DNA from: Candidatus Collierbacteria bacterium RIFCSPLOWO2_01_FULL_50_23
GTDB taxonomy: Bacteria > Patescibacteriota > Microgenomatia > UBA1400 > MFAQ01
Length of the DNA: 64,000 nt
Direction of reading: 5' to 3'
Assembly: GCA_001774555.1 (NCBI GenBank)
Contig: MFAI01000036.1
Span: 1,488 to 65,487, forward strand
The notes under the pieces were generated by a model. That model was given only the letters and a program-made list of their open reading frames with translations, was not told the DNA's origin and did no database searches. A program made the position numbers and the translations under genes. This document shows positions 5,856 to 46,695 of this stretch, piece after piece (within the stretch, counting starts at the first letter, position 1; every line of letters begins with the position of its first letter).

Positions 5856-7084
5856 TTCAGAGTCGAGGTAATTTTGTAAATAGGAACAATCACTATCAAA
5901 GCCAATCCCAAAACTCCGAAGCCCAAAACAAAAATCATCGCCGGCTCGATCAACGACAAAAGATTGCGTAGGGCCACTTCAAGTTCTTCCTCGTAATAGG
6001 CCGCCAGCCTGTCAAGTGTATTACCAAGGTTTCCGGTTTTTTCGGCACCCCTGATCAATCTAGTCATGATCGAGGGAAAAAGTTCTTTTTCGAAAAAAAC
6101 TGCATCGGCCAAACTTTTTCCGGCAGTCAAATGGTCGTTGATGCGAATGCAGGCATCGCGATAAAGCGGGTTACCCAAACTCGCCGCCAAAATATCGAAT
6201 GATGAAACAACTTCCACGCCATAAATATAAAATCCACCCAAAACCCGCGAAAAACGGGCCAGGTTGTAACGAATCACCAACGGCCCCACCACGGGAAGTC
6301 TCAAACTCAACCGGCCGAGAAGCCGATCCCCGTAAGAACTTCGCGAAAAACCGATCAGCGCAACAACCGAAAGCCCGACCAGTACCAGCATCAAATACCA
6401 ATACTCGGCAAAAAAGGCAACCGTACTTGCCAGCGCCAAGGTATATCCAGGTAGTTTTTGTCCCGAACTCTGGGCAAAAAGTAAAATTTTCGGAACAATA
6501 GACACACTAATAAAAATCATCACTGCAGCCATCGCGGTGACGACAACAATCGGATAGATCAAAGCTGATCGGACCTTGCTGGCAAGTTCGTTTTCCCGCC
6601 GCAACTGCATGGCCAAATAACCCAAGCTCTCAGCCAAGGTACCACTACCTTCACCCGCACGGACGACCGCCAGATACGCTGGGGGAAAAATTTTTGGAAA
6701 ACGGGCAAAGGCCTCAGAAAGTTTCACCCCCGACTGTACTTCCAAAATAATTTTACTGATCACTCTGCCGGAACCGGTGGCGCTTTTCTGATCAACAAAG
6801 GTAGACAGGGCGTCCAAAATCGGCAAACCGGCTTTGATCATCGAAGAAAGCTGATTGGTGAAAAGGATCTTCTCCGCAACTGACATTCTTTCGTTCAACT
6901 CCCGGTCCAGCCGAATGAAAAAATTTGTCAGGATCCCAATTTCCAGGGGGTTTCGAACTCGCAGGCTAACCACCGTCAATCCCTGTTCAGAGAGCATTGT
7001 TTGGGCCTCAAGCTCCGAGCCCGCCTGCAATCGCCCGCTTTTATATTCATCACGGCTGACGGCTTTGTATTCAAATTCTGGCAT
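5852..7084 (-). CDS. pilC: Type IV pilus inner-membrane platform protein PilC (GspF family)
   Basis: 410 aa with two GspF-type repeats and three TM regions, adjacent to PilB. Sequence resembles the T2SS F-domain family. Confidence 0.88.
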   Translation of the reverse strand: MPEFEYKAVSRDEYKSGRLQAGSELEAQTMLSEQGLTVVSLRVRNPLEIGILTNFFIRLDRELNERMSVAEKILFTNQLSSMIKAGLPILDALSTFVDQKSATGSGRVISKIILEVQSGVKLSEAFARFPKIFPPAYLAVVRAGEGSGTLAESLGYLAMQLRRENELASKVRSALIYPIVVVTAMAAVMIFISVSIVPKILLFAQSSGQKLPGYTLALASTVAFFAEYWYLMLVLVGLSVVALIGFSRSSYGDRLLGRLSLRLPVVGPLVIRYNLARFSRVLGGFYIYGVEVVSSFDILAASLGNPLYRDACIRINDHLTAGKSLADAVFFEKELFPSIMTRLIRGAEKTGNLGNTLDRLAAYYEEELEVALRNLLSLIEPAMIFVLGFGVLGLALIVIVPIYKITSTLK

Positions 7085-9433: not shown

Positions 9434-10426
9434 ATGTCAGTGCTACTCACATCGGGATGGATCCAGCTCCTGCTGGTCCTCCTGGGCATCGTCGCCCTGG
9501 TTGCCACCCTCTGGGCGATCTTCAGCGACACGTTCAACCGGGGCGAAAAGGCCGTCGCTGTCATCCCGAGCCTCGTCCTCGTCCTCTCCGCTTCAGGCGT
9601 TTTATGGGGCCAGACGCACATCGTCGTCCGACCTAACCAGTACGTCCTGGTGATCGACCGCCAGACGGGCGAACCGATCATTCCCCTGCGCGGCGCCGGC
9701 GTCACCGAAGTTCCGCTCTGGACCTGGACACGCTACGAGTACCCGGCGCAGAAGGACTACCAGTGGTGCCCGACGTTCACCCCGTCGTCGAAAAACGGGG
9801 CGTCGCTAACCGTGGTGGTCTGCTTCACCACCGATGCCAGCGCGATCGACTGGACAGCCCAGTTTCGCAGTTTCAACGGCGACCAGGACGTGGTCATGGC
9901 CGGCTGGCAAAACGCCGTCCAGACGGACGTCGCTTCAGCCTTTTCGAAGTTCGACCCTCGCGACTTGACCAACAAACGCTCAGATGTCGAAACCGGGATT
10001 TTCCAGGCCACCTTCGAGTGGTTCAAGTCCCACGGCATCAGCGTCACCATGGTGGGGCTCAAGAACTGGCAGTTTGCGTCACAGGCGATCAACGACGCCT
10101 ACGACCAAGCCCAGCTCTCCCAAACCAAGGTGGACGTGGCCAACGCCGAAAAGGCAGCCGCACAGGTCGAGCAGGAGACTGCATTGATCCGCGCTGAAAC
10201 CCAGGTCAAGGTGGTCACTACCTTGGCCGCAGGTCAGCGAGCGGCCTGCAATACCGCCGGCATGGTCAGCGAAACTGCCTGCCTGGAATACCTCCAGCTC
10301 GTCTGGCTCAGTCAGGGCGGCATCGACCCCAGCGTGGTCGTGATCACCGGCGGCGGCGATGCCGCTCCCGTGATCGCCCTGCCCGCCGAAAACGTGCCGG
10401 CAAACTCGCCGACGCAATCACCGTAA
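9434..10426 (+). CDS. SPFH / band-7 (stomatin-prohibitin-HflK/C-like) domain membrane protein
   Basis: N-terminal TM, then a region with the SPFH pattern (VVRPNQYVLVIDRQTGE ... LTVVVCF ... a long Ala/Gln/Glu-rich coiled-coil tail). Unusually high GC (~60%+) compared with flanks. Confidence 0.55.
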   Translation: MSVLLTSGWIQLLLVLLGIVALVATLWAIFSDTFNRGEKAVAVIPSLVLVLSASGVLWGQTHIVVRPNQYVLVIDRQTGEPIIPLRGAGVTEVPLWTWTRYEYPAQKDYQWCPTFTPSSKNGASLTVVVCFTTDASAIDWTAQFRSFNGDQDVVMAGWQNAVQTDVASAFSKFDPRDLTNKRSDVETGIFQATFEWFKSHGISVTMVGLKNWQFASQAINDAYDQAQLSQTKVDVANAEKAAAQVEQETALIRAETQVKVVTTLAAGQRAACNTAGMVSETACLEYLQLVWLSQGGIDPSVVVITGGGDAAPVIALPAENVPANSPTQSP

Positions 10427-11823: not shown

Positions 11824-13656
11824 ATGACAGACAGAAAGATCAGAAACATCGCCGTCATTGCCCACGTTGACCACGGCAAAACGACCCTAATTGACGCCCT
11901 CTTGAAGCAGAGTCATATTTTTCGTGACAATCAGGCGGAAATGAGCCAGACCACCATCCTCGACAGCAACGACCTTGAACGGGAGAAGGGGATTACCATC
12001 CTGGCCAAAAACACCGCCATTTCCTACCACGACGTCAAGATCAACGTCATCGATACCCCGGGACACGCCGATTTTTCCGGCGAGGTCGAACGGACTCTCG
12101 GTATGGCCGACGGCGCCCTCCTGATCATCGACGCCCAGGAAGGACCGATGCCCCAGACCCGTTTTGTGCTAAAAAAAGCCTTTGAACTCAACCTGAAGAT
12201 CATCGTGGTCATAAATAAGATCGATAAACCCTACGCCCGCGTTCCTGAAGTGATCGACAAAACCGACAATCTCTTTCTCGAATTGGCCACCCGAGACGAA
12301 CAGCTCGATTTTCCGATTCTCTACGCAGTCGGCCGCGACGGCAAAGCCTTCAAAGAACTACCAACCGACTTCAACCAGCCGGGAGACATCACCCCGCTGA
12401 TGGACGCCATCCTGGAATACATTCCCTCACCGGAAAACTCACTCGAGGGCAGCTTCAAAATGCTCGTTTCTAGCCTCGATTACGACTCCCACAAAGGCCG
12501 TTACATCATCGGTAAAATTTTCCGCGGCAGCATCAAACCCGGCGACAAAGTTGTCCTAAGCGGAAACAATCGAAGTTACACCATTGAGACCGTCCAGCTT
12601 TCCCGCGGTCTTTCTCGCTACGAAACAAACGAGGCTTTTGCCGGGGATATTGTTGCCCTGACCGGAGTATCCGATGCTAAGATCGGTGACACTATTGCCA
12701 ATGCCGCGGATACCGAGCCCCTAGCCGCCCCCAAGCTCACCGAGCCAACTCTTCATATGACCATCGCCGCCAACACCTCGCCTTTCTCTGCCCGCGAAGG
12801 CCAGTTCACCACCAGCCGTCAGCTGGAAGACCGCCTCTACAAAGAGCTTGAAACCAATCTTTCCCTCAAACTCGAAAAGCTCGAAAGCGGTAAGTTCCAG
12901 ATCTCCGGCAAAGGCGAACTCCACCTGGCTATTCTTCTCGAAACCCTTCGTCGTCAGGGCTATGAAATGGAAGTCGGTAAACCCGAGGTCATCGTCAGGA
13001 CCATCGATGGCATCAGTCAGGAGCCGGTCGAAGAGGTCAGTATCATCGTCCCCAGTGAGTATCTGGGCACTATCACCCAGGAGATCGGCAAGCGTCTTGG
13101 GGTGATGGTCAAAATGGAGCCCATTTACGGCGTCGAGACCGAGTTCACCTATACCATCCCAACCAGGAACATCATCGGCCTAAGGAGCCTGCTTCTGACG
13201 GCTACCAAGGGCACCGCCGTGTTCAGTTCCCAGGTGACCGGCTACCAGCCTGTAGGCAACCCTCTGCCCAAGCTCCGCCGTGGAGTACTTATCTCCTCAG
13301 AAACCGGTGAGGCTCTGGCTTATGGCCTCCAAAACGCCCAGGGTCGTGGTATCACCTTCGTCGGGCCGGGAACGGAGGTCTACGAGGGCATGATCATCGG
13401 CGTCAACGCCAAGGAAGAGGATATTGAGATCAACGTCACCAAAGGCAAGAAGCTCACCAACATGCGCTCCCAAGCCTCAGATGGTGTCATCCAACTTACT
13501 CCGGCTACCGTCATGAGTTTGGAGCAGTCTTTGGACTTCCTCGAGGGCGATGAGCTCCTGGAGATCACCCCGGTCTCCCTCCGCTTACGCAAGAAGTATC
13601 TGACCGAGATCGATCGCAGACGTACCAACCGCGGACAATCGGCCATTTCCCAATAA
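11824..13656 (+). CDS. typA: Translational GTPase TypA/BipA
   Basis: 610 aa. G1 [10 protein letters not shown]3 DTPGH, G4 NKID. Domain order and length match BipA rather than EF-G or LepA. Confidence 0.9.
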
Positions 13657-19499: not shown

Positions 19500-19573
19500 G
19501 GGCAAAATTCTAACACAAGCAGCAATAAAAAACCCGTCCTTTTGGGGGACGGGTTCATTTCGATGACCGAGGG

Positions 19574-20383
19574 TCAGGCCTGGGGATGCCCCTGAGGGCA
19601 CATCGCCGCGCCCCTCTCGATCGGCAAGCTGCAGTACTGGCAGTGAGTCGCGACAAACTCCTTCTGCGCCTCGTCTCTGGCATCTTTTGCCAGATCGGCT
19701 TTCAGGTCGGCAAGCGCATTTTCAACCTGCACGCCATAGGTTTCGACCGTGTCCACCACGGCATTCATCTCAGCGAGTTCCCCAGCCGTCTCAATGGCTG
19801 TGGAGATAACCTTCTTGCCGAGGTTCAGCAGGTTTTCCAGGCCGAAGCCACCGGGGTTGGTCATCCGGCGCAGGGTTTCATCGGCCACATCGGCCGCGGT
19901 GCCTTTTGCCTTGTCCGTGTTCGGCCGGCTGATCACCACGCTGGTGTCCTCGGCTTCAACACTGAGGCGAACTTCGCAAAGGCGCGAGCCGTCGGCAAGC
20001 GAGGTCAGGACGATCGAGTCGCCGGATCGCGTCACACGGAATTTGTCTCCGAGACGCGTCTGGAGACGCCCAGCGAGTTCGTTCAGGGACAGCGGCGCCT
20101 CATAACGCATTTGCTTCCCCTTGAGAAGCTCCATGACGCGGGTAACGACCATCGCCGTCCCCACTCCACCGGGCCCGAGCGCTGCCAGGCCGGCATCAAG
20201 GGCGTCATTCTGCGCCGGCCGCGACGCCACGATGCGCATTCCAGCAATCTCTGCCTTCAGCAACGCTTCGTCTGCCATCGAGAGATTCATCGCGTTGATG
20301 GTAGTCTTCGCATCCGCCTCAGACAATGCCGCCAGAAGTTCTTTCTCCGATTTTGCGACTTCGGAAAGTCTCAACTTGGCCAT
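19574..20383 (-). CDS. Hypothetical Ala-rich protein with C-terminal zinc-ribbon-like CxxC...CPxG
   Basis: 269 aa in a high-GC (~58-60%) block. C-terminus CQYCSLPIERGAAMCPQGH. No other motif recognised. Confidence 0.35.
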   Translation of the reverse strand: MAKLRLSEVAKSEKELLAALSEADAKTTINAMNLSMADEALLKAEIAGMRIVASRPAQNDALDAGLAALGPGGVGTAMVVTRVMELLKGKQMRYEAPLSLNELAGRLQTRLGDKFRVTRSGDSIVLTSLADGSRLCEVRLSVEAEDTSVVISRPNTDKAKGTAADVADETLRRMTNPGGFGLENLLNLGKKVISTAIETAGELAEMNAVVDTVETYGVQVENALADLKADLAKDARDEAQKEFVATHCQYCSLPIERGAAMCPQGHPQA

Positions 20384-20568
20384 ATTTACCTCCTATGGGT
20401 TTTGGCCGAACTATTATGTGCAATTTCGTATGTTCAATACGACTGAGGATATTTTAGATTATCTTGCCAGGAAATTCAACCTATAGCATATGGTGGGTGA
20501 ACGAAGGTGTGGGGGCGAGCGAGTTGACGAAAAGAGTCAAAAACCTAAAGAGTATATAATTTCAAAAA

Positions 20569-22420
20569 GTGAGATTTGAAAGAACCGCAGAACGAATGTG
20601 GGTGCGCGTCGAACAGGCCGCCACCAAAACTACCGTCAAAGTCAACCAACAAGTAATCGGCGAACACCTCGGTGCCTGGACTCCTTTTGAATTCGAAATT
20701 ACCAAGGCCCTCGGGAACGAGAACGAGCTTGAAGTCATCTGTGAAGATGTCAGTCACGTCACCGGTGGCTTTTTGCCGGCAGTCGGCATCCACTGGACCG
20801 GCGCCCGCCGGGTTGTGGTAAAGGATTGTCCCACCATTCTCCGCCCATCCGTCGCATCCCGAGCCTCCGTCGAAGGCACCAAACTCTTGGTTGACGGCGA
20901 ACCTTTCCGAACCCGCGGTATTCTCCACTGGGGTCTGTATCCGGAGCATGGGGGCAAACCCTGGCCGACCGAGGAACAAATGCGTCAGGAGATCAGAGAC
21001 GTCAAGGCGCTGGGGTTTAATCTGATCAAATTCTGTCTTTGGGTCCCCCCCGGAGCGTTATTACCAGCTCTGCGACGAAATGGGAATGTTTGTCTGGCAG
21101 GAATACCCCGTCTGGGACAAACCAATTCACGACAGAAGTCTGATCAAAGAATTCGAGGAACTTTTCCGCCACGACGGACCCTACGACTCGGTCATTCTGC
21201 GAACATTAACCTGTGAAAACACTCAAACCGACCCCGCACTCATCCAGGAAATAATGGACCTCGGCCACCGTCTCATTCCGGGCGCACTGATTCTGGACAA
21301 CAGCAGTTGGGTCGGCGACGAGCGTGCCGGCGACTTTCACGATGAGCATCCCTATCTTCACAATGCCCAATGGATTTATTACCCCAAAAGGATGAAGGAC
21401 CTTAATCTCCAAAAACCACTCCTTCTGGGAGAAACCATGGCCGTTGATACCCCGCCGGGCGGGCCGCACACTCAAGGCATAGAGGTGCGCCGCTTCCAGA
21501 TCGAAACCCTGGCACAAGCCCTACCTGACACCGGCTACGTCCTAAACTCAATTCGCGACCTTGACAGCGTTCCTCTGGGGCTCTTTACCTACAGCGGAGA
21601 GCCAAAGTATAGTCCCGAGGACTGGGCGTGGCACACTGACCATCTGGGGGCGCCCACCCGCCGCATTCCCGAAGCCGATCCGAGTCTTGGCCATATTATT
21701 GGTCCAAGGAAGGGTGAATGGAAATGCCCTGAACACACCTGGTGGAGTCCGTGGATAAAAATCTACGATCAGGACTTGCCGGAAGATCTGATTCAGCGGG
21801 AGTGTGTCTTTGAACTGCTATCCGGACGGGTGCTTAGTCAGACCGAAGGCACCCGCGTGCTTGTGGAAATGTGGGACCTCCACCCGGGTGAAGTAATAAA
21901 ACACCCCCTGGTGGTCGAGTTCACCACCCAGGGCGAACGTCGGGTCGTTTCCGCCTTCCGTCACGATACTCCTGCCGGACAGCTATTGTGGCAAGTCCTA
22001 CAGGCACGCACCGGTCCGGCTCCGGAAATCGGCCCTCTTATTGGCGACGCCATTGTTCTGGGCGACTGGGAAATGAGTACCGACGGAGAAAACTGGACTC
22101 CTACCGTCTGCGATACACCCCTGGTCAATCACGGCGCGAACGTCTACGAAGGCTGGGCCACCTTCCGCACCGGCTTTGACTATCCGGGCGGCGAGATGAC
22201 CCTTCGTGCCGAGGCAGTGGGGGACCAATACCGCATTGAAATCGACGGTCAGCCGGTGGGGACGGGCGGCAAGGGCATCCGCGACATTCCCAAAAACTTT
22301 CCGGTCAATCTCAGTCAAGGTAGACACAATATTGTCTTCGAAGTCAGAGATTGGAGAGCGGCCGGCGGCATGGTCGGCCCGGTTTACTTCACGAAAAATC
22401 TAGGCCTGCGCATCTTCTAG
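20569..22420 (+). pseudogene. Glycoside hydrolase family 2-like (beta-galactosidase/mannosidase-type) gene remnant, 5'-truncated and frameshifted at a poly-C tract
   Basis: Two track ORFs (20569..21216 and 21080..22420) in different frames join across the C-run at ~21046-21054. Frame 1 ends ...NLIKFCLWVPP and frame 2 continues YQLCDEMGMFVWQEYP, matching the GH2 TIM-barrel entry motif (N-x-V-R-x-S-H-Y-P ... L-C-D-x-x-G-x-x-V-W-x-E). The N-terminus starts mid sugar-binding domain (TPFEFEIT). Confidence 0.5.
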
Positions 22421-22473
22421 CCATATCTTCGCAAAAATCGTACGGCCCATAACATTGACATAATAATTTTTCC

Positions 22474-22508
22474 GTGTTAAGATATTCCCGTTCTTTGACA
22501 ACTCTTGT
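22474..22508 (+). promoter_or_regulatory. Candidate sigma70-type promoter (TTGACA-17nt-TAAGAT) upstream of ORF 22632..23312
   Basis: cattgacataataatttttccgtgttaagatattc has a consensus -35 and a near-consensus -10 with 17 nt spacing, leaving a ~120 nt leader. Confidence 0.35.
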
Positions 22509-22631
22509 AGGGAGTTAAGTGGACACAAGCCAAAGCTGACCAATGGGTCGGCGCTTTCTTGTGTTTGCTTCGTCTCCCTGCAGCTACTTTTCCGGGAGAA
22601 ACTTTTTTGATGCCCCTAAGGAGGCTCGTCT

Positions 22632-23312
22632 ATGTCACAAACATTCGCAGTTTACGGCTCCACCATGAGAGTGGAGATCCTGGTCGGGGAAATGCCCCAG
22701 CCGATCTACCGGCGCAAAGATGACGACATGCCGTTCGTCGAGGCCCTGTTGGGCCGCCCGTACGTCATCCGCGTCACCCCCACGTTCGTGAACGGCCGGC
22801 TGGAGGTCATCTCCAGCGTTGACGGCCGCAACACCCTCAAGAACGAGGTCGCCAACCCGATCGAAAACCATGGCATGGTCATCTCCAGCCCCTGGGAAAT
22901 CACCGGCTTCCGCCTCAACCAGGTAGAGACGGCTCAGTTCGTTTTCGGCGGCACGGCAGGATCGGTGGTCGAGCAGGCTACCGGCAGCACGGTGAACGCC
23001 GGCGTCATTGGCCTGGCGAGCTACCGCGAATTCCAGCAGTTCAACCAGCGCGAAGGCCCAATAAACTATGGCCTCACGCGCTCCAAAGGCGGCGAAGGTG
23101 CCGACGCCGGCACCCATGCGGGCGAGGCGCGCTTCGACCCCGTCGGCACGACCACATTCCGGCGCGCGACCCTCAGGCCTGTGGAAATGCTCGAAATCCA
23201 ATACCGCACTCGGGATTGGCTCGTCCGGAACGGCATCATCGCGTCCGACGATCCCAGCCCCTGGCCGGGCTTCCGCTCAAACAACACAGGGTACGACATC
23301 CTCCGCAAGTAG
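22632..23312 (+). CDS. Hypothetical protein (high GC)
   Basis: 226 aa with a good ATG plus GGAGG RBS (ctaaggaggctcgtctatg). No recognised motif. Followed by a strong terminator. Confidence 0.4.
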   Translation: MSQTFAVYGSTMRVEILVGEMPQPIYRRKDDDMPFVEALLGRPYVIRVTPTFVNGRLEVISSVDGRNTLKNEVANPIENHGMVISSPWEITGFRLNQVETAQFVFGGTAGSVVEQATGSTVNAGVIGLASYREFQQFNQREGPINYGLTRSKGGEGADAGTHAGEARFDPVGTTTFRRATLRPVEMLEIQYRTRDWLVRNGIIASDDPSPWPGFRSNNTGYDILRK

Positions 23313-23339
23313 TAGTAGCCTCGCCCTTCCGGGCAGGAG

Positions 23340-23376
23340 ACGAAAGGACAAGCCATCGGCTTGTCCTTTTTTTTTG
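23340..23376. terminator. Bidirectional rho-independent terminator (aaaggacaagcc-atcg-gcttgtccttttttttt)
   Basis: Perfect 12 bp stem and a 9-T tract, between convergent genes 22632..23312 (+) and 23385..24086 (-). Confidence 0.7.
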
Positions 23377-23384
23377 GGAAAAAG

Positions 23385-24086
23385 CTAATTTTTCGGAGTT
23401 TCCCCATAAATCCGCACTTCCGTGCCTGGATTGTTGGCCTCTGCCCGAGTGCCATTCTTCTCACCCACGGTCGGCTGACTCCAGTAGAAGAGCACTTCGG
23501 CATCCTCAGTGCGCATGTTGACACAGCCATGGCTCATGGGGCGGCCAAAGTTGTTGTGCCAGTAGGTTCCGTGGAGACTGAAGCCCCTAGAGGCTGATAT
23601 CTTCGAGTTGCCAAAGAACATGACGTAGGGAACGTTCGGCAGGTAGTAATAGGTACCAAGCGTAGGGTTACCGCCGGACATCTTGGTATAACGGAACTTC
23701 CCCCAAATGGTGAACGTGCCCGTAGGCGTGGGGTACCACTTTCCCGTAGAGACCAAGAACTCATAAATCTTCTGATTACCCTCAAAAGCATAGACTTTCT
23801 GGTTGGTCAGATCGACCTCGATCCGCTTCGGACCGGAATTCTCGCCGAGGACCCGGGCCAGCCTCCCGGGATAGACCTCAGTCGAATCGGCAAAATGGCC
23901 GTGGAACGTAGCCCGGGTGTCTCCCGAATCGTACTCACCGGTCAGACTATCAGGCACGATTGGGTTCTGCTCTGCCAGGTAGCGAGAAACTAACCGAAAG
24001 CCACCAAAAGCACCCACCAAAACCAGCAAAGACAGCCCCAAAGCCAGTTCTCCGAGACGGTGATACAGAAGCTTCATAGAGCCCAT
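23385..24086 (-). CDS. L,D-transpeptidase (YkuD domain) with N-terminal membrane anchor
   Basis: Catalytic motif HGTYWHNNFGRPMSHGCVNM (His ... Ser-His-Gly-Cys). N-terminal TM LALGLSLLVLVGAF. Confidence 0.8.
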   Translation of the reverse strand: MGSMKLLYHRLGELALGLSLLVLVGAFGGFRLVSRYLAEQNPIVPDSLTGEYDSGDTRATFHGHFADSTEVYPGRLARVLGENSGPKRIEVDLTNQKVYAFEGNQKIYEFLVSTGKWYPTPTGTFTIWGKFRYTKMSGGNPTLGTYYYLPNVPYVMFFGNSKISASRGFSLHGTYWHNNFGRPMSHGCVNMRTEDAEVLFYWSQPTVGEKNGTRAEANNPGTEVRIYGETPKN

Positions 24087-24231
24087 TATGAGGTAAAAAA
24101 ACGATTAATGTCAACCGATTTTGTCAAAGAAGATATTAGGTGGATGTATCAGACTTTCCGGTATAGCCCAAACTTGCTTTATGGCCTATATTATGCTATA
24201 ATACACCCCTATAGGTTGAATAAACCAAACT

Positions 24232-28116: not shown

Positions 28117-30894
28117 TCACGAGCAAGCCGCCGGATTATTGTTAGCTACACAAATAGGGATCTTGATTTCGCTTGCCAACTGTTTACCGTCGCGAGGAAA
28201 AGGGTTCTGGTGGTCGATAATATGCGCGTGCCAACTAAGAATATGCCACCCGTCTGCCACTTTTCTAGTATCCAAAGTCATCGCCTGCCTGCTTTTCCAA
28301 GTCGAACCTATTCCCCCCAATTCAGTGGCGGGAACAAATAGTCTTTGCACCGTATAGTCATCCCCATTTTGATCTATGCGCAACTCAATATGATGCACTG
28401 TCGACAACCTATCCGTACTTGTCGAGGTTCCTCTCGATCCAAACCCATATACGGTCAGATTGCCTTTGACTGTTCCCCCCAAAAGCTGTATCGGGCTCAA
28501 GTTCCCCCTCCCCTCGTCCCTAGCCCCATCTATTGTGGCATACGCGTACCCCAGCTTCTCGTACCAAGCATGGGCATCCAAAATGTCATATGCGGTCGCG
28601 GGTAACACCGGATGATGGGCCGCCCCCGTGCCGCCAGTCCCAGGATCTCGGTTGAACCATATCACCTGATTTATATTCACCTGCAAGCCATCGCCGCTTG
28701 CCGCCGACCCGTCTCCGAAATTGTTTGTCGATCCCTCTTTTGCCAAACACCTTGTCCGCAGTTCATACGAGTCGGCCCCCCCCTCGGCCGTAAGCGTCAT
28801 ATTCACAAAATTCTCTACCGTATTTTGGCTCAAAGAACGATAAGAACCTCCACTCCTTTGAATCACCAAGTTGTGACTGCCGCTCAAAGTATTTTTTGCT
28901 GTTCCTTTGGCCGGGTATTTGCCCGGCTTCAAACAAGTCATACTTTGCGTTATCACGTCTCCGGAATTAAATCTCTTTCTTTCTGGAAATATGCTCCTAT
29001 TCACAACCCACACCTGGTTTTCATAAAACTTATCTGTGGGGCCCCACCACGCCCCTCCAGCGGCAATATTTCGGTTTCCAGCTCGCACCTGGTTTAATAT
29101 AAATTCATTCGTATAATTGTCCGAATCAGTGAGAGAGTCAAAACCTCCACAATCCACTCGAGCAAAGCCATTTAAAAAGCATGTTCCATCTCCGATTGGC
29201 GGCTGTGTCGGAGGGGGAGTAGCAGTTGACACCAATGGCGTAGGCGTAGGAGTTCGCGTTGGCGACGGAGATGCATTTGGACTAGACGACGGTGCAATTG
29301 CAAAAGAATCTGAAAAGTTACCCCCTCCGCCGTTTGCCGCAGTCACCGGCGCCTTGATAAAATCTACTTGTAAACGATTGGATGTCACGTTGATTTTCGC
29401 AAACCCGTGTGTGGGGTTAAAACTCGACCCCGACCATCTGGCAAAATAGACCTGTTCGGGATCGGACAAGTCAAAAGACGTTAGCGACGCTCCCCCAGAT
29501 CCCACCATGTAAAAAATTGTACCTTGGCCTTTAGTGTAAGTTCTTCCGGAACTAGTAGTAGAGTTGACTATACAAACACTGGGATAAAAAGAAGGACTGC
29601 TAACACAGTTACTACTTCCTGCCTTTCCCAACAGCTTGCTTATCTGGACACCATGTTTATGCCCTTCCAGCACCAAGTCCACCTTTTTTTCTAAAAGCAA
29701 GTTCATTACCTCTGTCCCCGAATCACAGCCCAAGCCCATAACTATACATGGGTAGTGTTTGCCCACGATGATCCACCCAATACCAGCGGCCCTGGCCGAA
29801 TCAATGGCGTTCACCAACCACGTTCGGTGAACACCGCTTGAGTAAGAATAATATCCTTCACTGTCATCAGAAAAGTCCAAGCCCGGGGAAATCATGATAA
29901 ACCTAGCCAGAGGCAAAGACTGGGGGTAGTCAAAGTAAAATTCCCGGGCATACTTGCCCACCATGCCGGATATTCGGTTCGGCAAACAGTTGGCAAAATT
30001 AATAATGTTCCCATCTGGACCACTGTCTTCGTGATTACCCGCCACCAGCTCAAAAGGGAAACTACTTCCCACATAACCTTTAACAAAATCGCACCAGGCC
30101 GATTCTGGCGTCACGTGGTTGTAACTTAAATCTCCCAAAGCCAGAAAGAAATTCAAGTTATTTTTGGCCACTTCAGTCAGCACTACACCACCACGATAGG
30201 TCCGGCCACCAATATCACCCGCCGCCCCAAAGGTAAAGCTACCAGGCGCGTTGGTGGGAATAGGGGTAGCGGTTGACACCAATGGCGCAGGCGTAGGAGT
30301 CCGCGTTGGCGTCGGTGAATTAGTTGGCAAAACCGGATTCAAAGTCAATATTGACCCCCCACTCTCAAACAGCAATTCTCTCGCTTCTATGTCTACCACC
30401 TGCACCCCATTTATCCCAACAACCGTCGAGGTGTCGCTTTGAGACGTATTCGAGTCGAATTTCAAAGACGCTATCAATATCTCTCCTACTACGGGATTGG
30501 CTCTTGTCAGCGGATCCAGCCCCACCGCCACTCTGATCTTGCCAGTCGAGTTAGCCTCACCCTTTTCTGTCTTCACAATTACTCGGTTTAAAACCGGTCC
30601 CAATTCAACCTCGTTTTTCAGTTGCACCTTACTGGCATCAAATTCCACCACTAGGTCTGCAAAAACTACTTTTTTTCCTTTGGTATCTAGTCTCACCGTC
30701 AAGCTCTGATCGGGAGGCAATGTGGTCGCTTCGGGGGACACAAAAACACGCACTTTCTCACTAGTTGCAGCTCTCAGAGAAAACCTCACTTCACGCTGTA
30801 CCAATATCAATACTATTCCAAATCCCGCCAGCAACAATCCCGCCAGCAACAATCTTACCATCGAAACCCGCCCAACTAGTTTCCTTATCACCAT
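28117..30894 (-). CDS. Large membrane-anchored surface protein: cohesin-like N-terminal beta domain, Thr/Pro linker, calcineurin-like metallophosphoesterase domain, second Thr/Pro linker, C-terminal domain
   Basis: 925 aa with N-terminal TM. Metallophosphoesterase motifs GDLSY, GNHE and GHKH are present. Linkers PTPTRTPTPAPLVSTATP and SPSPTRTPTPTPLVSTATPPPT. The N-terminal region VVFADLVVEFDASKVQLKN...GEILIASLKF resembles a cohesin module. Confidence 0.55.
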   Translation of the reverse strand: MVIRKLVGRVSMVRLLLAGLLLAGFGIVLILVQREVRFSLRAATSEKVRVFVSPEATTLPPDQSLTVRLDTKGKKVVFADLVVEFDASKVQLKNEVELGPVLNRVIVKTEKGEANSTGKIRVAVGLDPLTRANPVVGEILIASLKFDSNTSQSDTSTVVGINGVQVVDIEARELLFESGGSILTLNPVLPTNSPTPTRTPTPAPLVSTATPIPTNAPGSFTFGAAGDIGGRTYRGGVVLTEVAKNNLNFFLALGDLSYNHVTPESAWCDFVKGYVGSSFPFELVAGNHEDSGPDGNIINFANCLPNRISGMVGKYAREFYFDYPQSLPLARFIMISPGLDFSDDSEGYYSYSSGVHRTWLVNAIDSARAAGIGWIIVGKHYPCIVMGLGCDSGTEVMNLLLEKKVDLVLEGHKHGVQISKLLGKAGSSNCVSSPSFYPSVCIVNSTTSSGRTYTKGQGTIFYMVGSGGASLTSFDLSDPEQVYFARWSGSSFNPTHGFAKINVTSNRLQVDFIKAPVTAANGGGGNFSDSFAIAPSSSPNASPSPTRTPTPTPLVSTATPPPTQPPIGDGTCFLNGFARVDCGGFDSLTDSDNYTNEFILNQVRAGNRNIAAGGAWWGPTDKFYENQVWVVNRSIFPERKRFNSGDVITQSMTCLKPGKYPAKGTAKNTLSGSHNLVIQRSGGSYRSLSQNTVENFVNMTLTAEGGADSYELRTRCLAKEGSTNNFGDGSAASGDGLQVNINQVIWFNRDPGTGGTGAAHHPVLPATAYDILDAHAWYEKLGYAYATIDGARDEGRGNLSPIQLLGGTVKGNLTVYGFGSRGTSTSTDRLSTVHHIELRIDQNGDDYTVQRLFVPATELGGIGSTWKSRQAMTLDTRKVADGWHILSWHAHIIDHQNPFPRDGKQLASEIKIPICVANNNPAACS

Positions 30895-43549: not shown

Positions 43550-43645
43550 TAGATCCCCGATCAAGTCGGGGATGACAGGAGTGTCAAACCCGCCCCCCCT
43601 GTCATTCCCGCGAAAGCGGGAATCTATTTTGATAAGATAAGCAAG

Positions 43646-44632: not shown

Positions 44633-46695
44633 GTATGGACATCAAACTACCGGATTCTACCCTAAGAAAATACCTCATCACCAAAGCAACACCCGAAAAG
44701 GTCGCCGAGGCTCTCACCCTTTGCGGACCCTCGGTCGACCGCCTTCATCACAAGAACGGAAACAGCGTCTATGACATCGAAGCCATCACCAATCGCGTCG
44801 ATACCGCCTGCGCCTTTGGTGTCGCCCGAGAAGCGGCCGCGATTCTGCCTCTGTTCGGAATCAAAGCAAAATTAAACAACAGTCCTTACGACATCAAGGC
44901 CACCGACCTACCCGAAAGAACCGCTGTCAAACTGCCCCTTATTGTCGAAATAAAGGACGAGGCTCTCATTCCACGATTTGCGGCCATCGTTTTGTCCGAT
45001 CTCATCGTGGCCGACGCGCCAACCGAAATGAAAGAAGATCTCGAACTGTCCGGGGTCCGCACCCTCAACAATCTTATTGATATCACCAATTACCTGACTC
45101 TTTGTTTCGGCCAACCGGTTCACATTTTTGACTATGACAAAATCAAGGGCCACAAAATGATTCTTCGGGAAAGTAGGGCAGGGGAGAAGCTCACCACTCT
45201 TGACGGCAAAATCCACAAGTTACTCGGGGGTGACATTGTTATCGAAGACGGCGAGGGTAGACTGATCGATCTTTGTGGCATTATGGGCGGAAAGTTGTCC
45301 GAGGTGGATGAAAAAACCCAAAAAGCTGTTCTGTTTGTCCAAACATATCAGCCCAAAAAAATCAGACGCACCTCGCTTTATACTCAGGAGAGGACCCTCG
45401 CTGCCCAGATTTTCGAGAAACAACCCGATACAAAATTAGTGATCCCAACACTGATAGAGGGAGTCAGACTCCTGGTAAAACATGCCCGGGCAAAGGTTGC
45501 TGGAGAATCAATCGACCTTTATTTCCAAAAACCGCAAGCCAAAACTGTCAAACTTGACATCAAGTGGCTCAATCGCTTGATTGGATATGATTTCGATTTC
45601 AAAACAGTTACTGGAATCCTCAAAAACCTTGGTTTTGGAATAAAAAAAATCTCGGCGAGTTCGCTTGCAGCCTCTGTCCCCACCTGGAGACTCCACGACA
45701 TTTCTATTCCCGAAGACCTGGCTGAGGAGGTTGCCCGAATTTATGGCTACTTCAGGTTGGAAGGCAAACTTCCCGTCACTGCCAATCTTTCGGTTGCCAC
45801 AGATCCCTTGCTGGACTGGGAATACGCCGTCAAAAGATATCTTGCTGACTTGGGTTTTACCGAAATATTCAACTACTCCCTGGTCAGCCGGGATATTTTC
45901 CAAAAAGCAAACTTGGACACAGATCACTCCATCCCTCTGACAAATCCACTTGCAAAAGAGTTCGGGTTCATGCGCTGTAGCCTGATTCCCAGCCTTTTGA
46001 TGGACCTGGAGCACAACCAGGGGAAGGTCAACCTGCCGATCCGCATTTTCGAACTCTCAAATATATACCTGCCCGACCAAACTGCGAAGATGTTGTCGGG
46101 TTTGCCAGAAGAAAGATCGATTTTGTGTATGGCGACCCAAGGCATCAGTTACCGGCACTCCAAGGGTTACCTGGAAGCCCTCTTTGGTATGCTTCACATT
46201 CCCAATATCAGCTTCGCGTCCGTGGAAGGGAACGAAGGACCATGGCAAAAGAACCAGACGGCCGAGATCTATTCAGGGAAACACTTTATCGGCATTTTTG
46301 GCGCGATCAAACAGGGTATCAGAACGGCCTTCAGTCTCAATGATGATATTTACTTGACCAACCTCGACTTCCAATCAATTTCCGATTTGGCCAATACCGA
46401 TTTCAGCTATACCCCGATCTCGGACTACCCGGATCTGATCGAAGATATCACCATACAATCGGACCGGCATATTTCCGAACTAATTCAATTAATTAAACAA
46501 GAAAGCGCCCTCGTCAATAAAGTTGGTTACAAGGATTCTTTGAAAAATAAGCACACTTTTACAGTTCACTTCAACGATCCAAAGAGAAACCTTTCCGAAA
46601 GTGAAGTGACCAAAATTCGGGAAAAACTCAAATTGTTGGGGAAAAGGGGGGGGTCGGAATCGGTTCCGGAGTCGGTTCTGCCCAATCCTGGTTGA
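44629..46695 (+). CDS. pheT: Phenylalanine--tRNA ligase beta subunit (short form)
   Basis: Immediately follows pheS with a 4 nt overlap. B3/B4, B5 and catalytic-like domains are present. At 688 aa it lacks the N-terminal tRNA-binding extension of ~800 aa PheT. Confidence 0.8.
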   Translation: MSMDIKLPDSTLRKYLITKATPEKVAEALTLCGPSVDRLHHKNGNSVYDIEAITNRVDTACAFGVAREAAAILPLFGIKAKLNNSPYDIKATDLPERTAVKLPLIVEIKDEALIPRFAAIVLSDLIVADAPTEMKEDLELSGVRTLNNLIDITNYLTLCFGQPVHIFDYDKIKGHKMILRESRAGEKLTTLDGKIHKLLGGDIVIEDGEGRLIDLCGIMGGKLSEVDEKTQKAVLFVQTYQPKKIRRTSLYTQERTLAAQIFEKQPDTKLVIPTLIEGVRLLVKHARAKVAGESIDLYFQKPQAKTVKLDIKWLNRLIGYDFDFKTVTGILKNLGFGIKKISASSLAASVPTWRLHDISIPEDLAEEVARIYGYFRLEGKLPVTANLSVATDPLLDWEYAVKRYLADLGFTEIFNYSLVSRDIFQKANLDTDHSIPLTNPLAKEFGFMRCSLIPSLLMDLEHNQGKVNLPIRIFELSNIYLPDQTAKMLSGLPEERSILCMATQGISYRHSKGYLEALFGMLHIPNISFASVEGNEGPWQKNQTAEIYSGKHFIGIFGAIKQGIRTAFSLNDDIYLTNLDFQSISDLANTDFSYTPISDYPDLIEDITIQSDRHISELIQLIKQESALVNKVGYKDSLKNKHTFTVHFNDPKRNLSESEVTKIREKLKLLGKRGGSESVPESVLPNPG

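What the first reader, a model, noticed from the sequence alone, without database searches (positions are those of the whole stretch)
19570..24100. Second high-GC block with a truncated, frameshifted GH2-like glycosidase whose sugar-binding jelly-roll sits at the C-terminus
From ~19.57 to ~24.1 kb GC is again high. It contains a 269 aa Ala-rich zinc-ribbon protein, an unknown 226 aa protein with its own promoter and terminator, an L,D-transpeptidase and a GH2-like gene. The GH2-like gene is split between two frames at a C-homopolymer (~21046-21054). It starts in the middle of what looks like the GH2 sugar-binding domain (TPFEFEIT…), has a good TIM-barrel entry motif (NLIKFCLWVPP / YQLCDEMGMFVWQE), and ends with a complete jelly-roll resembling the GH2 N-terminal domain (VYEGWATFRTGF…RIEIDGQPVGTGGKG…NIVFEV). 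It is either a decaying acquired gene (pseudogene) or a sequencing error in a homopolymer. The apparent domain permutation is unusual either way. A glycosidase in a genome-reduced epibiont, located in a foreign-composition block, is a candidate host-derived gene in the process of loss.
Basis: partly seen in the sequence, partly recalled or inferred. Interest (0 to 1): 0.5.

Follow-up and report, generated by a model that had tools for sequence, protein, structure and literature searches.

The report
Frameshifted, horizontally acquired GH2-like glycosidase
A sugar-cleaving enzyme gene that a tiny groundwater bacterium (Candidatus Collierbacteria) seems to have acquired from planctomycetes is broken by one extra C in a run of Cs; its odd domain layout is normal for its protein family, so this is most likely an ordinary, very young pseudogene.

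Summary
Window 19570-24100 has 56.4% GC against 48% elsewhere. A GH2-like gene (20569-22420, + strand) is split between two frames at a C7 run (21045-21051).

Most of the interpretation does not hold.
- Removing one C gives a 616-aa protein that matches intact 616-640-aa homologues end to end, with the same N-terminus. The gene is therefore not truncated.
- The half-size N-terminal jelly-roll and the GH2_N-like C-terminal jelly-roll are native to a family found mainly in Planctomycetota. Longer relatives carry a full N-terminal domain and the same C-terminal domain, so this is a second copy, not a permutation.
- C7 is present in eight assemblies, which rules out a sequencing error.
- The nearest relatives outside the candidate phyla radiation (CPR), the group of small-genome bacteria that includes Collierbacteria, are Phycisphaerae and other Planctomycetota, not actinobacteria.

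The frameshift is the only lesion found. One in-frame version assembled at the protein level exists in one sample.

Best reading: a recent slip mutation inactivated a gene acquired by horizontal transfer. A reversible on/off switch or leaky +1 decoding cannot be excluded without reads. Interest is modest.

The parts
20569..21051 (+). 5' part of the GH2-like gene, frame A. It runs from the GTG start to the C run and covers residues 1-160/161. It encodes the half-size GH2_N-like beta-sandwich (residues ~1-85, 20569-20823), a beta-hairpin, and TIM-barrel strands 1-2.
   Evidence: ORF. The N-terminus aligns with the start of intact P0001. Pfam GH2_N matches residues 8-50 and GH2_C matches residues 101-181, both below threshold. 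Strand positions come from the model of P0001.
21045..21051 (+). C7 homopolymer, the site of the +1-nt frameshift. In the 0 frame it reads GTC CCC CCC GGA (V-P-P-G). With six C it would read GTC CCC CCG GAG (V-P-P-E).
   Evidence: C7 is present in L001-L005 and L096-L098. The orthologue in L006 has GTA CCA CCA GAG and no C run.
21052..21216 (+). Out-of-frame tail of the frame-A ORF: 54 codons (GALLPALRRNG...) followed by the TGA stop codon.
21053..22420 (+). 3' part of the GH2-like gene, frame B, residues 162-616 plus the stop. It holds TIM strands 3-8 and the conserved Glu178 (21101-21103). It also holds the putative acid/base Cys215-Glu216 (21212-21217), Asp258-Glu259-His260 (21341-21349) and the putative nucleophile Glu288 (21431-21433). 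An alpha/beta middle region and the C-terminal domain follow.
21080..22420 (+). The 446-aa ORF that gene callers report, starting from an internal ATG. NCBI reports a 388-aa version as a hypothetical protein.
22037..22417 (+). C-terminal GH2_N-like jelly-roll (residues 490-616).
20555..20560 (+). TATAAT -10-like hexamer, 8 nt upstream of the GTG start. A -10-like hexamer sits 6-8 nt upstream of the start in the other loci examined (L006, L007/L008, L026). This suggests a leaderless mRNA.
   Evidence: sequence inspection; no experimental support.
20545..20979 (-). Antisense ORF, called as a 134-aa gene in every assembly. It lies opposite the homology-supported 5' part of the GH2-like gene and is most likely a spurious call.
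19574..20383 (-). Gene for a 269-aa Ala-rich protein with a conserved C-terminal CxxC...C..C/H motif. It belongs to a small family of unknown function.
   Evidence: no Pfam match; 15 clusters in 1.84 billion representatives; C248, C251 and C262 invariant.
22632..23312 (+). Gene for a 226-aa near-orphan protein (GC 0.63, GC3 0.83). It has a promoter-like site at 22455-22483 and a terminator-like hairpin at 23342-23370 followed by T9.
   Evidence: only 3 hits, one of them the protein itself.
23385..24086 (-). YkuD-type L,D-transpeptidase gene.
   Evidence: Pfam PF03734, E 2.8e-22.

Best explanation
The window comes from a Candidatus Collierbacteria genome (CPR, Microgenomates). Positions 20569-22420 encode a member of an uncharacterised GH2-related glycosidase family that lives mainly in Planctomycetota. 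A small Collierbacteria clade appears to have acquired it once by horizontal transfer.

The native protein is ~616 aa and has no signal peptide. Its parts, in order, are:
- a reduced GH2_N-like beta-sandwich;
- a clan GH-A (beta/alpha)8 barrel, with no Ig-like domain in between; the barrel carries a Cys-Glu putative acid/base after strand 4 and a Glu putative nucleophile in strand 7;
- an alpha/beta middle region;
- a second, complete GH2_N-like jelly-roll at the C-terminus.

It presumably works as a retaining exo-glycosidase on an imported sugar. The mechanism is inferred from the fold and the conserved residues. The substrate is unknown.

In this population a slipped-strand insertion turned a C6 run (GTC CCC CCG) into C7. 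This shifts the frame after codon 160, between barrel strand 2 and helix 2. As encoded, the gene yields two products. One is a 215-aa fragment with a 54-residue nonsense tail. The other, at best, is a 446-aa fragment that lacks barrel strands 1-2. Neither should be catalytically competent, which is an inference. Because this is the only lesion, the inactivation is recent. The gene is a young pseudogene on its way to loss.
For: The lesion is real.
- C7 is present in eight assemblies: JGI 3300002502, SRR2090153, SRR3989344, ERZ4903125, ERZ4903137, ERZ4903070, ERZ4903055 and ERZ28563641.
- Two longer tracts in the same window, C8 at 28776 and G8 at 46646, are in frame inside long ORFs.

There is a single lesion.
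- Deleting one C restores 616 aa with no stop. The junction is then identical to intact orthologues (FCLWVPPERYYQLCDEMGMFVWQE).
- The window protein departs from consensus at only 4 of 105 columns that are at least 90% conserved. Most intact homologues (68 of 74) show 0-6 departures.

The frameshift is not conserved.
- P0001, P0005 (partial) and P0126-P0128 read through the site in frame.
- L006 has no C run at the site.

Family, fold and mechanism.
- 265 homologues were found, most of them 616-690 aa and covering 100% of the query.
- The family profile hits GH2 structures with E 6.5e-22.
- The AF2 model has pLDDT 95.8 and pTM 0.93, with E216 directly after strand 4 and E288 in strand 7.
- E178, C215, E216, D258, H260 and E288 are invariant across 74 sequences; N217 and E259 are conserved in at least 90%.

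Origin.
- Source names identify the organism as Candidatus Collierbacteria RIFCSPLOWO2_01_FULL_50.
- 157 relatives were found in GTDB species genomes, and almost all of the best 80 are Planctomycetota.
- In a neighbour-joining tree the CPR clade is monophyletic and nested within the short-form clade, whose source-named members are Planctomycetota.
- The gene is 56.4% GC against 48% for the rest of the window. Donor-type loci are 56-69% GC.
Against: - No second degenerative change exists, so nothing shows that selection has been relaxed.
- P0125 is an in-frame 607-aa version, 97% identical to the repaired protein. It was assembled at the protein level (Plass/SRC) from run SRR3989344, the same run that gave a C7 contig. 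It could be a co-existing intact allele or an ON phase variant. It could also come from reads with an indel error.
- C/G runs of 7 are known reversible switches, for example glpK in mycobacteria (PMC10334774).
- CCC-C is a known +1-slippery site for tRNA-Pro (PMC7577736). Some full-length enzyme may therefore still be made.
- The strains available are identical across the gene, apart from one 60-bp recombination patch and 3 mismatches in the short contig L096. dN/dS could therefore not be used.
- The tree is a quick neighbour-joining tree without support values.
Confidence: 0.6

Rival explanations
1. Phase-variable (contingency) locus. The C run flips between C6 (ON) and C7 (OFF) by slipped-strand mispairing. 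The population keeps the glycosidase as a switchable function, and the assemblies simply captured the majority OFF state.
For: - A C/G homopolymer of 7 lies inside the ORF.
- The gene is otherwise intact.
- An in-frame protein-level assembly, P0125, comes from the same run as a C7 contig.
- There is precedent for 7-nt C/G tracts acting as reversible frameshift switches (PMC10334774).
Against: - All eight nucleotide assemblies show C7, and none shows C6.
- No in-frame nucleotide-derived protein above 90% identity exists among 5.8 billion clusters.
- The tract is not conserved in orthologues. L006 uses GTA CCA CCA.
- P0125 differs at 16 residues in its first 110. It may be a chimera of strains, or bridged by an erroneous read, because Plass merges translated reads at 90% identity or above without consensus correction.
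- A cytoplasmic glycosidase is not a typical contingency gene (general knowledge).
Confidence: 0.15
2. The frameshift is bypassed during expression. Either a ribosome shifts +1 at CCC-CCC-G, with tRNA-Pro slipping while stalled on the Pro-Pro-Gly motif, or RNA polymerase slips on the C run. Either way a useful fraction of full-length enzyme would be made from the C7 allele.
For: - CCC-C is an established +1-slippery context for tRNA-Pro (PMC7577736 and related papers).
- The 0-frame reads V-P-P-G. From general knowledge, this is a strong EF-P-dependent stalling motif.
- A +1 shift yields exactly the conserved sequence WVPPERYY.
- The downstream 455 codons remain open and conserved.
Against: - The shift is not conserved in any orthologue, unlike programmed frameshifts.
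- No stop or obviously rare codon follows the slip site, and no Shine-Dalgarno-like stimulator was seen upstream (inspection only).
- From the literature as I recall it, basal +1 slippage at CCC-C in modified-tRNA backgrounds is around 1%.
- An open downstream frame is equally expected for a very young pseudogene.
Confidence: 0.08
3. Sequencing or assembly artefact. The true genome has C6 and an intact gene.
For: Homopolymers are classic sites of indel error. One in-frame protein-level assembly exists.
Against: - Eight assemblies made by different pipelines (JGI, Logan, ENA MEGAHIT-style k141, and a scaffold from a separate project) all give C7.
- The longer C8 and G8 tracts in the same window are in frame.
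Confidence: 0.03
4. This is an N-terminally truncated, domain-permuted relic of a glycosidase taken from a host, possibly actinobacterial.
For: - The Pfam GH2_N match starts at profile position 82.
- A GH2_N-like jelly-roll lies at the C-terminus.
- GC is elevated.
Against: - Intact homologues have the same N-terminus and length.
- Long relatives have both a full N-terminal domain and the C-terminal domain.
- None of the 80 listed genome hits is titled as actinobacterial; nearly all are Planctomycetota.
- The CPR copies form their own clade with 72-75% identity to one another. The gene has therefore been resident and diverging within Collierbacteria.
Confidence: 0.03

Closest known systems
Glycoside hydrolase family 2 (for example Eisenbergiella tayi beta-galacturonidase 6ncw, Bacteroides GH2 7sf2, Bacteroides uniformis GUS-1 6d1n)
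   Same: - It has a GH2_N-type jelly-roll followed by a clan GH-A (beta/alpha)8 barrel.
- It has the LCDExG..VWQE motif after strand 2/3, and Glu residues after strand 4 and in strand 7.
   Different: - No Ig-like domain (PF00703) lies between the jelly-roll and the barrel.
- The first ~80 positions of the GH2_N profile are missing.
- The acid/base motif is an invariant Cys-Glu, not Asn-Glu.
- About 290 extra C-terminal residues end in a second GH2_N-like domain.
- Pfam GH2 models score below their gathering thresholds.
- No member has been characterised, as far as the sources' names show.
Homopolymer-tract frameshift switches, for example the 7-nt C/G tract of glpK in the Mycobacterium tuberculosis complex (PMC10334774)
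   Same: A 7-nt C/G run inside a metabolic gene gains one base and shifts the frame. The gene is otherwise intact.
   Different: Reversion or within-population length polymorphism has not been shown here. All eight assemblies are C7, and the tract is absent from orthologues.
+1 ribosomal frameshifting by tRNA-Pro at CCC-C (PMC7577736; sufB2/m1G37 literature)
   Same: The site is CCC-CCC-G. A +1 slip on the second Pro codon would restore the conserved protein sequence.
   Different: That literature describes translational error or suppressor tRNAs, not a conserved gene-expression device. There is no evidence of use here.
Young single-lesion pseudogenes in reduced genomes, including poly(A) frameshifts in insect endosymbionts that are partly rescued by transcriptional slippage (recalled from memory: Tamas et al. 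2008; not checked here)
   Same: A reduced genome, a single homopolymer indel, and an otherwise intact ORF.
   Different: The tract is poly(C), not poly(A). No transcript data are available.

Membership tests
Glycoside hydrolase family 2 (GH2) | Sequence matches to the Pfam GH2 domain models (Glyco_hydro_2_N, Glyco_hydro_2, Glyco_hydro_2_C) above their curated thresholds | tested here: not met
   GH2_C scores 19.8 bits against a cut-off of 21. GH2_N scores 20.3 against 28. There is no PF00703 match. NCBIfam GH2 equivalogs score far below their cut-offs. Longer relatives (P0080, P0081, P0110 and others) do carry precomputed GH2_N and GH2_C hits.
Glycoside hydrolase family 2 (GH2) | Clan GH-A (beta/alpha)8 barrel with catalytic Glu residues at the ends of strands 4 and 7 | tested here: met
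   In the model of orthologue P0001, strand 4 spans residues 208-215 and is followed by E216. Strand 7 spans 284-289 and contains E288. Both Glu residues are invariant in 74 sequences and present in the window (21215-21217 and 21431-21433). Catalysis itself was not tested.
Glycoside hydrolase family 2 (GH2) | Asn-Glu (NE) acid/base motif | tested here: not met
   The family has an invariant Cys215-Glu216 (TCEND). In the alignment to 6d89, C aligns with N and E with E of WSIANE.
Glycoside hydrolase family 2 (GH2) | Domain order: full jelly-roll, then Ig-like beta-sandwich, then TIM barrel | tested here: not met
   Profile alignments to 7sf2, 9j6m and 6d89 leave the targets' ~100 residues between the jelly-roll and the barrel unmatched. 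The model has only a hairpin (residues 99-108) there.
Glycoside hydrolase family 2 (GH2) | Overall fold closest to solved GH2 enzymes | tested here: met
Glycoside hydrolase family 2 (GH2) | Demonstrated glycosidase activity and substrate | not testable with these tools
   No characterised member was found. Gene neighbours in Planctomycetota are heterogeneous (GH2+PA14, sulfatase, GH65, AnmK, flagellin). A GH1 gene lies next to one CPR orthologue.
Pseudogene (recent, single lesion) | Reading frame disrupted relative to intact orthologues | tested here: met
Pseudogene (recent, single lesion) | Lesion present in the DNA, not an artefact | tested here: met
   C7 in eight assemblies.
Pseudogene (recent, single lesion) | Further degenerative changes (extra stops or indels, loss of conserved residues) | tested here: not met
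   There is no other stop or indel. The window protein departs at 4 of 105 conserved columns, and three of these are shared with intact CPR orthologues. The one unique change, D218T, is also in the in-frame P0125. The start codon is GTG where orthologues have ATG.
Pseudogene (recent, single lesion) | No functional product made | not testable with these tools
   This needs transcript, proteome or enzyme data.
Phase-variable contingency locus | Homopolymer tract of slippage-prone length inside the ORF | tested here: met
   C7 at 21045-21051.
Phase-variable contingency locus | Tract-length polymorphism within or between populations | tested here: inconclusive
   All 8 nucleotide assemblies are C7. 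One in-frame protein-level assembly, P0125, exists, but its DNA could not be retrieved. A pattern scan for C5-C9 alleles in JGI contigs found nothing, because that collection lacks these samples.
Phase-variable contingency locus | Tract maintained in orthologues | tested here: not met
   L006 reads GTA CCA CCA GAG.
Programmed +1 ribosomal frameshift | Frameshift conserved among orthologues | tested here: not met
   All orthologues read through the site in frame.
Programmed +1 ribosomal frameshift | Slippery site plus a stimulator (a slow or stop codon in the A site, or an upstream SD-like element) | tested here: inconclusive
   The slippery CCC-C is present. The next 0-frame codon is GGA, not a stop. 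No SD-like element was obvious. Codon rarity was not quantified.
Circular or domain permutation of GH2 | The N-terminal domain has moved to the C-terminus, so relatives have one or the other | tested here: not met
   P0076 and P0081 (834-842 aa) have a full N-terminal GH2_N domain and the homologous C-terminal jelly-roll. The short N-terminal domain still forms a 7-strand sandwich.
Horizontally transferred gene (Planctomycetota to Collierbacteria) | Recipient clade nested within the donor phylum's diversity, plus deviant composition | tested here: met
   The neighbour-joining tree supports nesting but has no support values. Among species genomes the relatives are almost all Planctomycetota. 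The gene is 0.564 GC against 0.48 for the rest of the window. The P0001 gene is 0.487 against 0.429 for its upstream neighbour.

The most novel reading that the evidence does not exclude
The C run is a working ON/OFF switch, or a leaky +1 decoding site. It would let a genome-reduced CPR bacterium keep a horizontally acquired glycosidase as a stochastically expressed function. The intact and frameshifted versions seen in the same sample would then be the two phases. A search of the paper library for 'candidate phyla radiation' together with 'phase variation' and 'homopolymeric' found no paper holding all three terms. This would therefore be an early case of contingency-type gene regulation in the candidate phyla radiation. 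It would occur in an uncharacterised GH2-like family that uses a Cys-Glu acid/base motif in place of Asn-Glu.
Probability: 0.12. Interest if true: 0.55.

Novelty: new variant of a known kind. Interest (0 to 1): 0.3.

Why it matters
The importance is modest. Four points are worth keeping.
- It documents one concrete gene that entered a Collierbacteria lineage from Planctomycetota, diverged there, and is now being lost or switched off in one population. This is a snapshot of gene flux in a reduced genome.
- It flags an uncharacterised GH2-related family, with hundreds of members mostly in Phycisphaerae. The family has a trimmed N-terminal domain, no Ig-like domain, a Cys-Glu catalytic motif and a duplicated GH2_N-like C-terminal domain. 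It may be worth biochemical characterisation.
- It is an annotation lesson. Pipelines call a 388-446-aa 'hypothetical protein' plus a spurious antisense ORF. A reader working from Pfam-like memory takes a native architecture for truncation and permutation.
- If read data showed tract-length switching, interest would rise.

Tried and rejected
- A pattern scan of JGI metagenome contigs for C5-C9 alleles of the tract found 0 hits. The pattern itself works on the window and the fetched loci, so the collection simply lacks these samples.
- A protein-based scan of the same collection with P0125 found only homologues at 75% identity or below, and no near-identical intact allele.
- The DNA of the in-frame P0125 is not on record.
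- dN/dS between strains could not be computed. L003, L005 and L098 are identical to the window across the GH2-like gene. The one exception is a 60-bp recombination patch in L005. Other differences cluster at contig ends or in the 269-aa gene.
- Gene neighbourhoods in ten Planctomycetota loci gave no consistent operon or substrate hint.
- I looked for a general homopolymer-frameshift tendency in this genome and rejected it. The other C/G tracts of 7 or more are in frame or intergenic.
- I considered that the whole 4.5-kb block is one foreign island. Only the GH2-like gene has phylogenetic evidence for transfer. The 226-aa and 269-aa genes are near-orphans, and YkuD is uninformative. Orthologues of the GH2-like gene sit in unrelated contexts.

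Full report
**1. What is in the sequence**

Window 19570-24100 is 56.4% GC, against 48.0% for the rest of the window. Per-kb values are 0.53-0.57. Per gene the values are:
- 269-aa gene: 0.589
- GH2-like gene: 0.564 (GC3 0.63)
- 226-aa gene: 0.630 (GC3 0.83)
- YkuD gene: 0.543

The window mean is 0.487 with sd 0.048. The elevation is real but not unique. The ORF at 9434-10426 reaches 0.625. The core gene at 11824-13656 reaches 0.545; it corresponds to the 610-aa GTP_EFTU/BipA_C product called in L001.

- **269-aa ORF, minus strand (19574-20383).** It has no family match. It has only 15 related clusters among 1.84 billion representatives. Its C-terminal CxxC...C..C/H motif is conserved, so 'zinc-ribbon-like' is reasonable.
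- **226-aa ORF (22632-23312).** It is a near-orphan. A promoter-like site at 22455-22483 and a 13-bp-stem terminator at 23342-23370 bracket it.
- **YkuD L,D-transpeptidase (23385-24086).** Pfam E 2.8e-22.
- **GH2-like gene.** Its two frames meet at exactly seven C residues, 21045-21051.

**2. The frameshift is real**

The same C7 is present in eight assemblies from different pipelines and accessions. These are JGI 3300002502, Logan SRR2090153 and SRR3989344, ENA ERZ4903125, ERZ4903137, ERZ4903070 and ERZ4903055, and ERZ28563641.

Two longer tracts in the same window, C8 at 28776 and G8 at 46646, lie in frame inside long ORFs. Homopolymers are therefore not generally miscalled here.

These contigs belong to a nearly clonal population. 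They differ from the window only in short clusters of SNPs. 'Eight assemblies' therefore means eight observations of one population, not eight lineages.

**3. The gene is neither truncated nor permuted**

Deleting one C gives a 616-aa protein with the junction FCLWVPP-ERYYQLCDEMGMFVWQE. A search of 5.8 billion protein clusters returned 265 homologues. Dozens are 616-690 aa long and cover 100% of the query.

The closest intact one is P0001 (616 aa, 75% identity). It begins MKFERIGDRMWVRIEQ where the window has V(M)RFERTAERMWVRVEQ, and it has the identical junction. Its DNA reads GTA CCA CCA GAG at the site, with no C run.

So the 'start in the middle of the GH2 sugar-binding domain' is how this family begins. 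Pfam GH2_N does match only from profile position 82.

Longer relatives of 834-842 aa (P0076, P0081) carry a full N-terminal GH2_N domain and the same C-terminal domain. In a rough neighbour-joining tree they branch below the short forms.

The C-terminal jelly-roll really is GH2_N-like.
- hhalign of the family's C-terminal columns against its own N-terminal columns gives probability 96%.

The correct description is a second copy of the domain plus an ancestral trimming of the first. It is not a permutation.

**4. What the protein is**

The AF2 model of P0001, built from a 74-sequence alignment, is very confident (pLDDT 95.8, pTM 0.93). Its parts are:
- a seven-strand N-terminal sandwich (residues 2-85);
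- a hairpin;
- an eight-stranded (beta/alpha) barrel (strands at 116-120, 152-156, 174-178, 208-215, 241-245, 257-259, 284-289 and 322-325);
- an alpha/beta middle region;
- a nine-strand C-terminal sandwich.

Invariant residues include E178, C215-E216, D258, H260 and E288; N217 and E259 are conserved in at least 90% of sequences. E216 follows strand 4 and aligns with the acid/base Glu of WSIANE in 6d89. E288 lies in strand 7, the nucleophile position of clan GH-A.

I therefore infer a retaining glycosidase with an unusual Cys-Glu in place of Asn-Glu. This rests on fold and conservation only. There is no N-terminal signal sequence, so the enzyme is probably cytoplasmic (inspection).

The substrate is unknown. 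Neighbours in Planctomycetota are heterogeneous. One CPR orthologue sits beside a GH1 gene.

Pfam and NCBIfam GH2 models stay below their thresholds. I therefore call it GH2-like rather than a GH2 member.

**5. Where it came from**

Source names for the identical 388-aa and 226-aa products identify the organism as Candidatus Collierbacteria bacterium RIFCSPLOWO2_01_FULL_50, in the Microgenomates group of the Patescibacteria/CPR.

A scan of one genome per GTDB species found 157 relatives. Almost all of the best 80 are Planctomycetota (Phycisphaerae, Pirellulaceae and others), with a few from Verrucomicrobia, Fimbriimonadaceae and Fermentibacteria.

The CPR copies are the window, P0125, P0001, P0005 (named Collierbacteria), P0126 and P0127. 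They form one clade nested within the short-form clade, whose source-named members are Planctomycetota. They lie in loci of 46-49% GC, whereas Planctomycetota loci are 56-69% GC.

The simplest reading is one transfer from Planctomycetota into a Collierbacteria ancestor, followed by divergence to 72-75% identity. This supports 'foreign origin'. It gives no support for an actinobacterial or host donor. Only this gene in the block has such evidence.

**6. Pseudogene, switch or recoding?**

The frameshift is the only defect found.
- There are no other stops or indels.
- The window protein departs at only 4 of 105 strongly conserved columns. Most intact homologues (68 of 74) show 0-6 departures.
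- Three of the four departures are shared with intact CPR orthologues.
- The unique one is D218T, next to the putative acid/base residue. It also occurs in the in-frame P0125, so it predates the frameshift.

No orthologue shares the frameshift, which argues against a programmed event.

As encoded, the products would be two fragments. One has 215 aa: the sandwich, strands 1-2 and a 54-residue nonsense tail. The other has at most 446 aa and lacks strands 1-2. Neither should fold into a complete barrel (inference).

I therefore favour a recent slip, C6 to C7, that inactivated the gene (confidence 0.6).

Three facts keep the alternatives alive.
- **An in-frame version exists.** The 90% cluster of the 446-aa product contains P0125, an in-frame 607-aa sequence 97% identical to the repaired protein, with the junction intact. 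It comes from the Soil Reference Catalog. That catalogue was assembled at the protein level from translated reads by Plass (10.1101/386110). The source run, SRR3989344, also gave a C7 contig (L004).
  - An in-frame junction needs at least one read with an in-frame tract. That read could come from a real intact strain, since 16 of the 18 differences lie in the first 110 residues. It could come from a minority phase variant. It could also be a read-level indel error, because Plass does not build a consensus. I could not retrieve its DNA.
- **Seven-nucleotide C/G tracts are known reversible frameshift switches** (glpK; PMC10334774).
- **CCC-C is a known +1-slippery site for tRNA-Pro** (PMC7577736). 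A +1 slip here would restore exactly the conserved sequence.

Only read-level, transcript or proteome data can separate these readings.

**7. Verdict**

The more striking parts of the interpretation (truncation, permutation, host origin) are not supported.

What remains is a real, single-lesion frameshift in a horizontally acquired gene. The gene belongs to an uncharacterised GH2-like family and sits in a reduced CPR genome. That is ordinary in kind and mildly interesting in its particulars. The interest score is 0.3.

Noticed in passing
window 19850-20051 (inside the 269-aa gene, minus strand); L098 and the start of L003: A ~200-bp hypervariable patch. L098 differs from the window at 59 positions here (31 synonymous, 28 non-synonymous by codon). 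The flanking kilobases are identical. L003 carries part of the same variant segment. It looks like allelic recombination or diversifying variation in the central region of this unknown protein.
   Followed up: partly
window 21564-21622 (inside the GH2-like gene); L005: L005 differs at 13 nucleotides (6 amino acids) in a 60-bp patch. The rest of the gene is identical and still carries C7. Several of the changes (for example Ser to Thr in KYSP/KYTP, Asp to Gly in LDS/LGS) move towards residues seen in the orthologue P0001. This suggests a small gene-conversion or recombination tract.
   Followed up: partly
window 20553-20571; L006 835-858; L007 ~10005-10027; L026 ~5985-6003: A -10-like hexamer (TATAAT, TATAAT, TACAAT, TATTAT) lies 6-8 nt upstream of the start codon in the CPR-clade loci examined (window, L006, L007/L008, L026). 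This suggests leaderless mRNAs. The window uses GTG where the others use ATG, which might reduce leaderless initiation.
   Followed up: partly
window 20545-20979, minus strand: A 134-144-aa antisense ORF is called as a gene in every public assembly of this locus. It lies opposite the homology-supported 5' part of the GH2-like gene. It is almost certainly a gene-calling artefact caused by the frameshift.
   Followed up: yes
window 22632-23312: The 226-aa protein has the most deviant composition in the window (GC 0.63, GC3 0.83). It has only two distant homologues (45-50% identity) among 5.8 billion clusters. It has its own promoter-like site and a strong terminator. Its function is unknown.
   Followed up: partly
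window 9434-10426: Another strongly GC-rich ORF (330 aa, GC 0.625, GC3 0.82), outside the finding. It was not examined.
   Followed up: no
window 28776-28783 (C8), 46646-46653 (G8), 43593-43599 (C7): These are further long C/G homopolymers. The first two are in frame inside long ORFs (925 aa and 902 aa), and the third is intergenic. They are potential slippage-prone sites and useful error controls for read-level analysis.
   Followed up: partly
window 21221-23 (codon 218 of the repaired protein): There is an Asp-to-Thr change at a column at least 90% conserved (TCEND to TCENT), two residues after the putative acid/base Glu216. It is shared with the in-frame P0125 and absent from all other homologues examined. 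It might already have altered activity before the frameshift.
   Followed up: partly
L007 12583-14007: In another CPR genome, the contig carrying intact P0126, a GH1 glycosidase and a histidine-phosphatase gene lie immediately downstream of the GH2-like orthologue. This is the only hint of a sugar-utilisation context.
   Followed up: no
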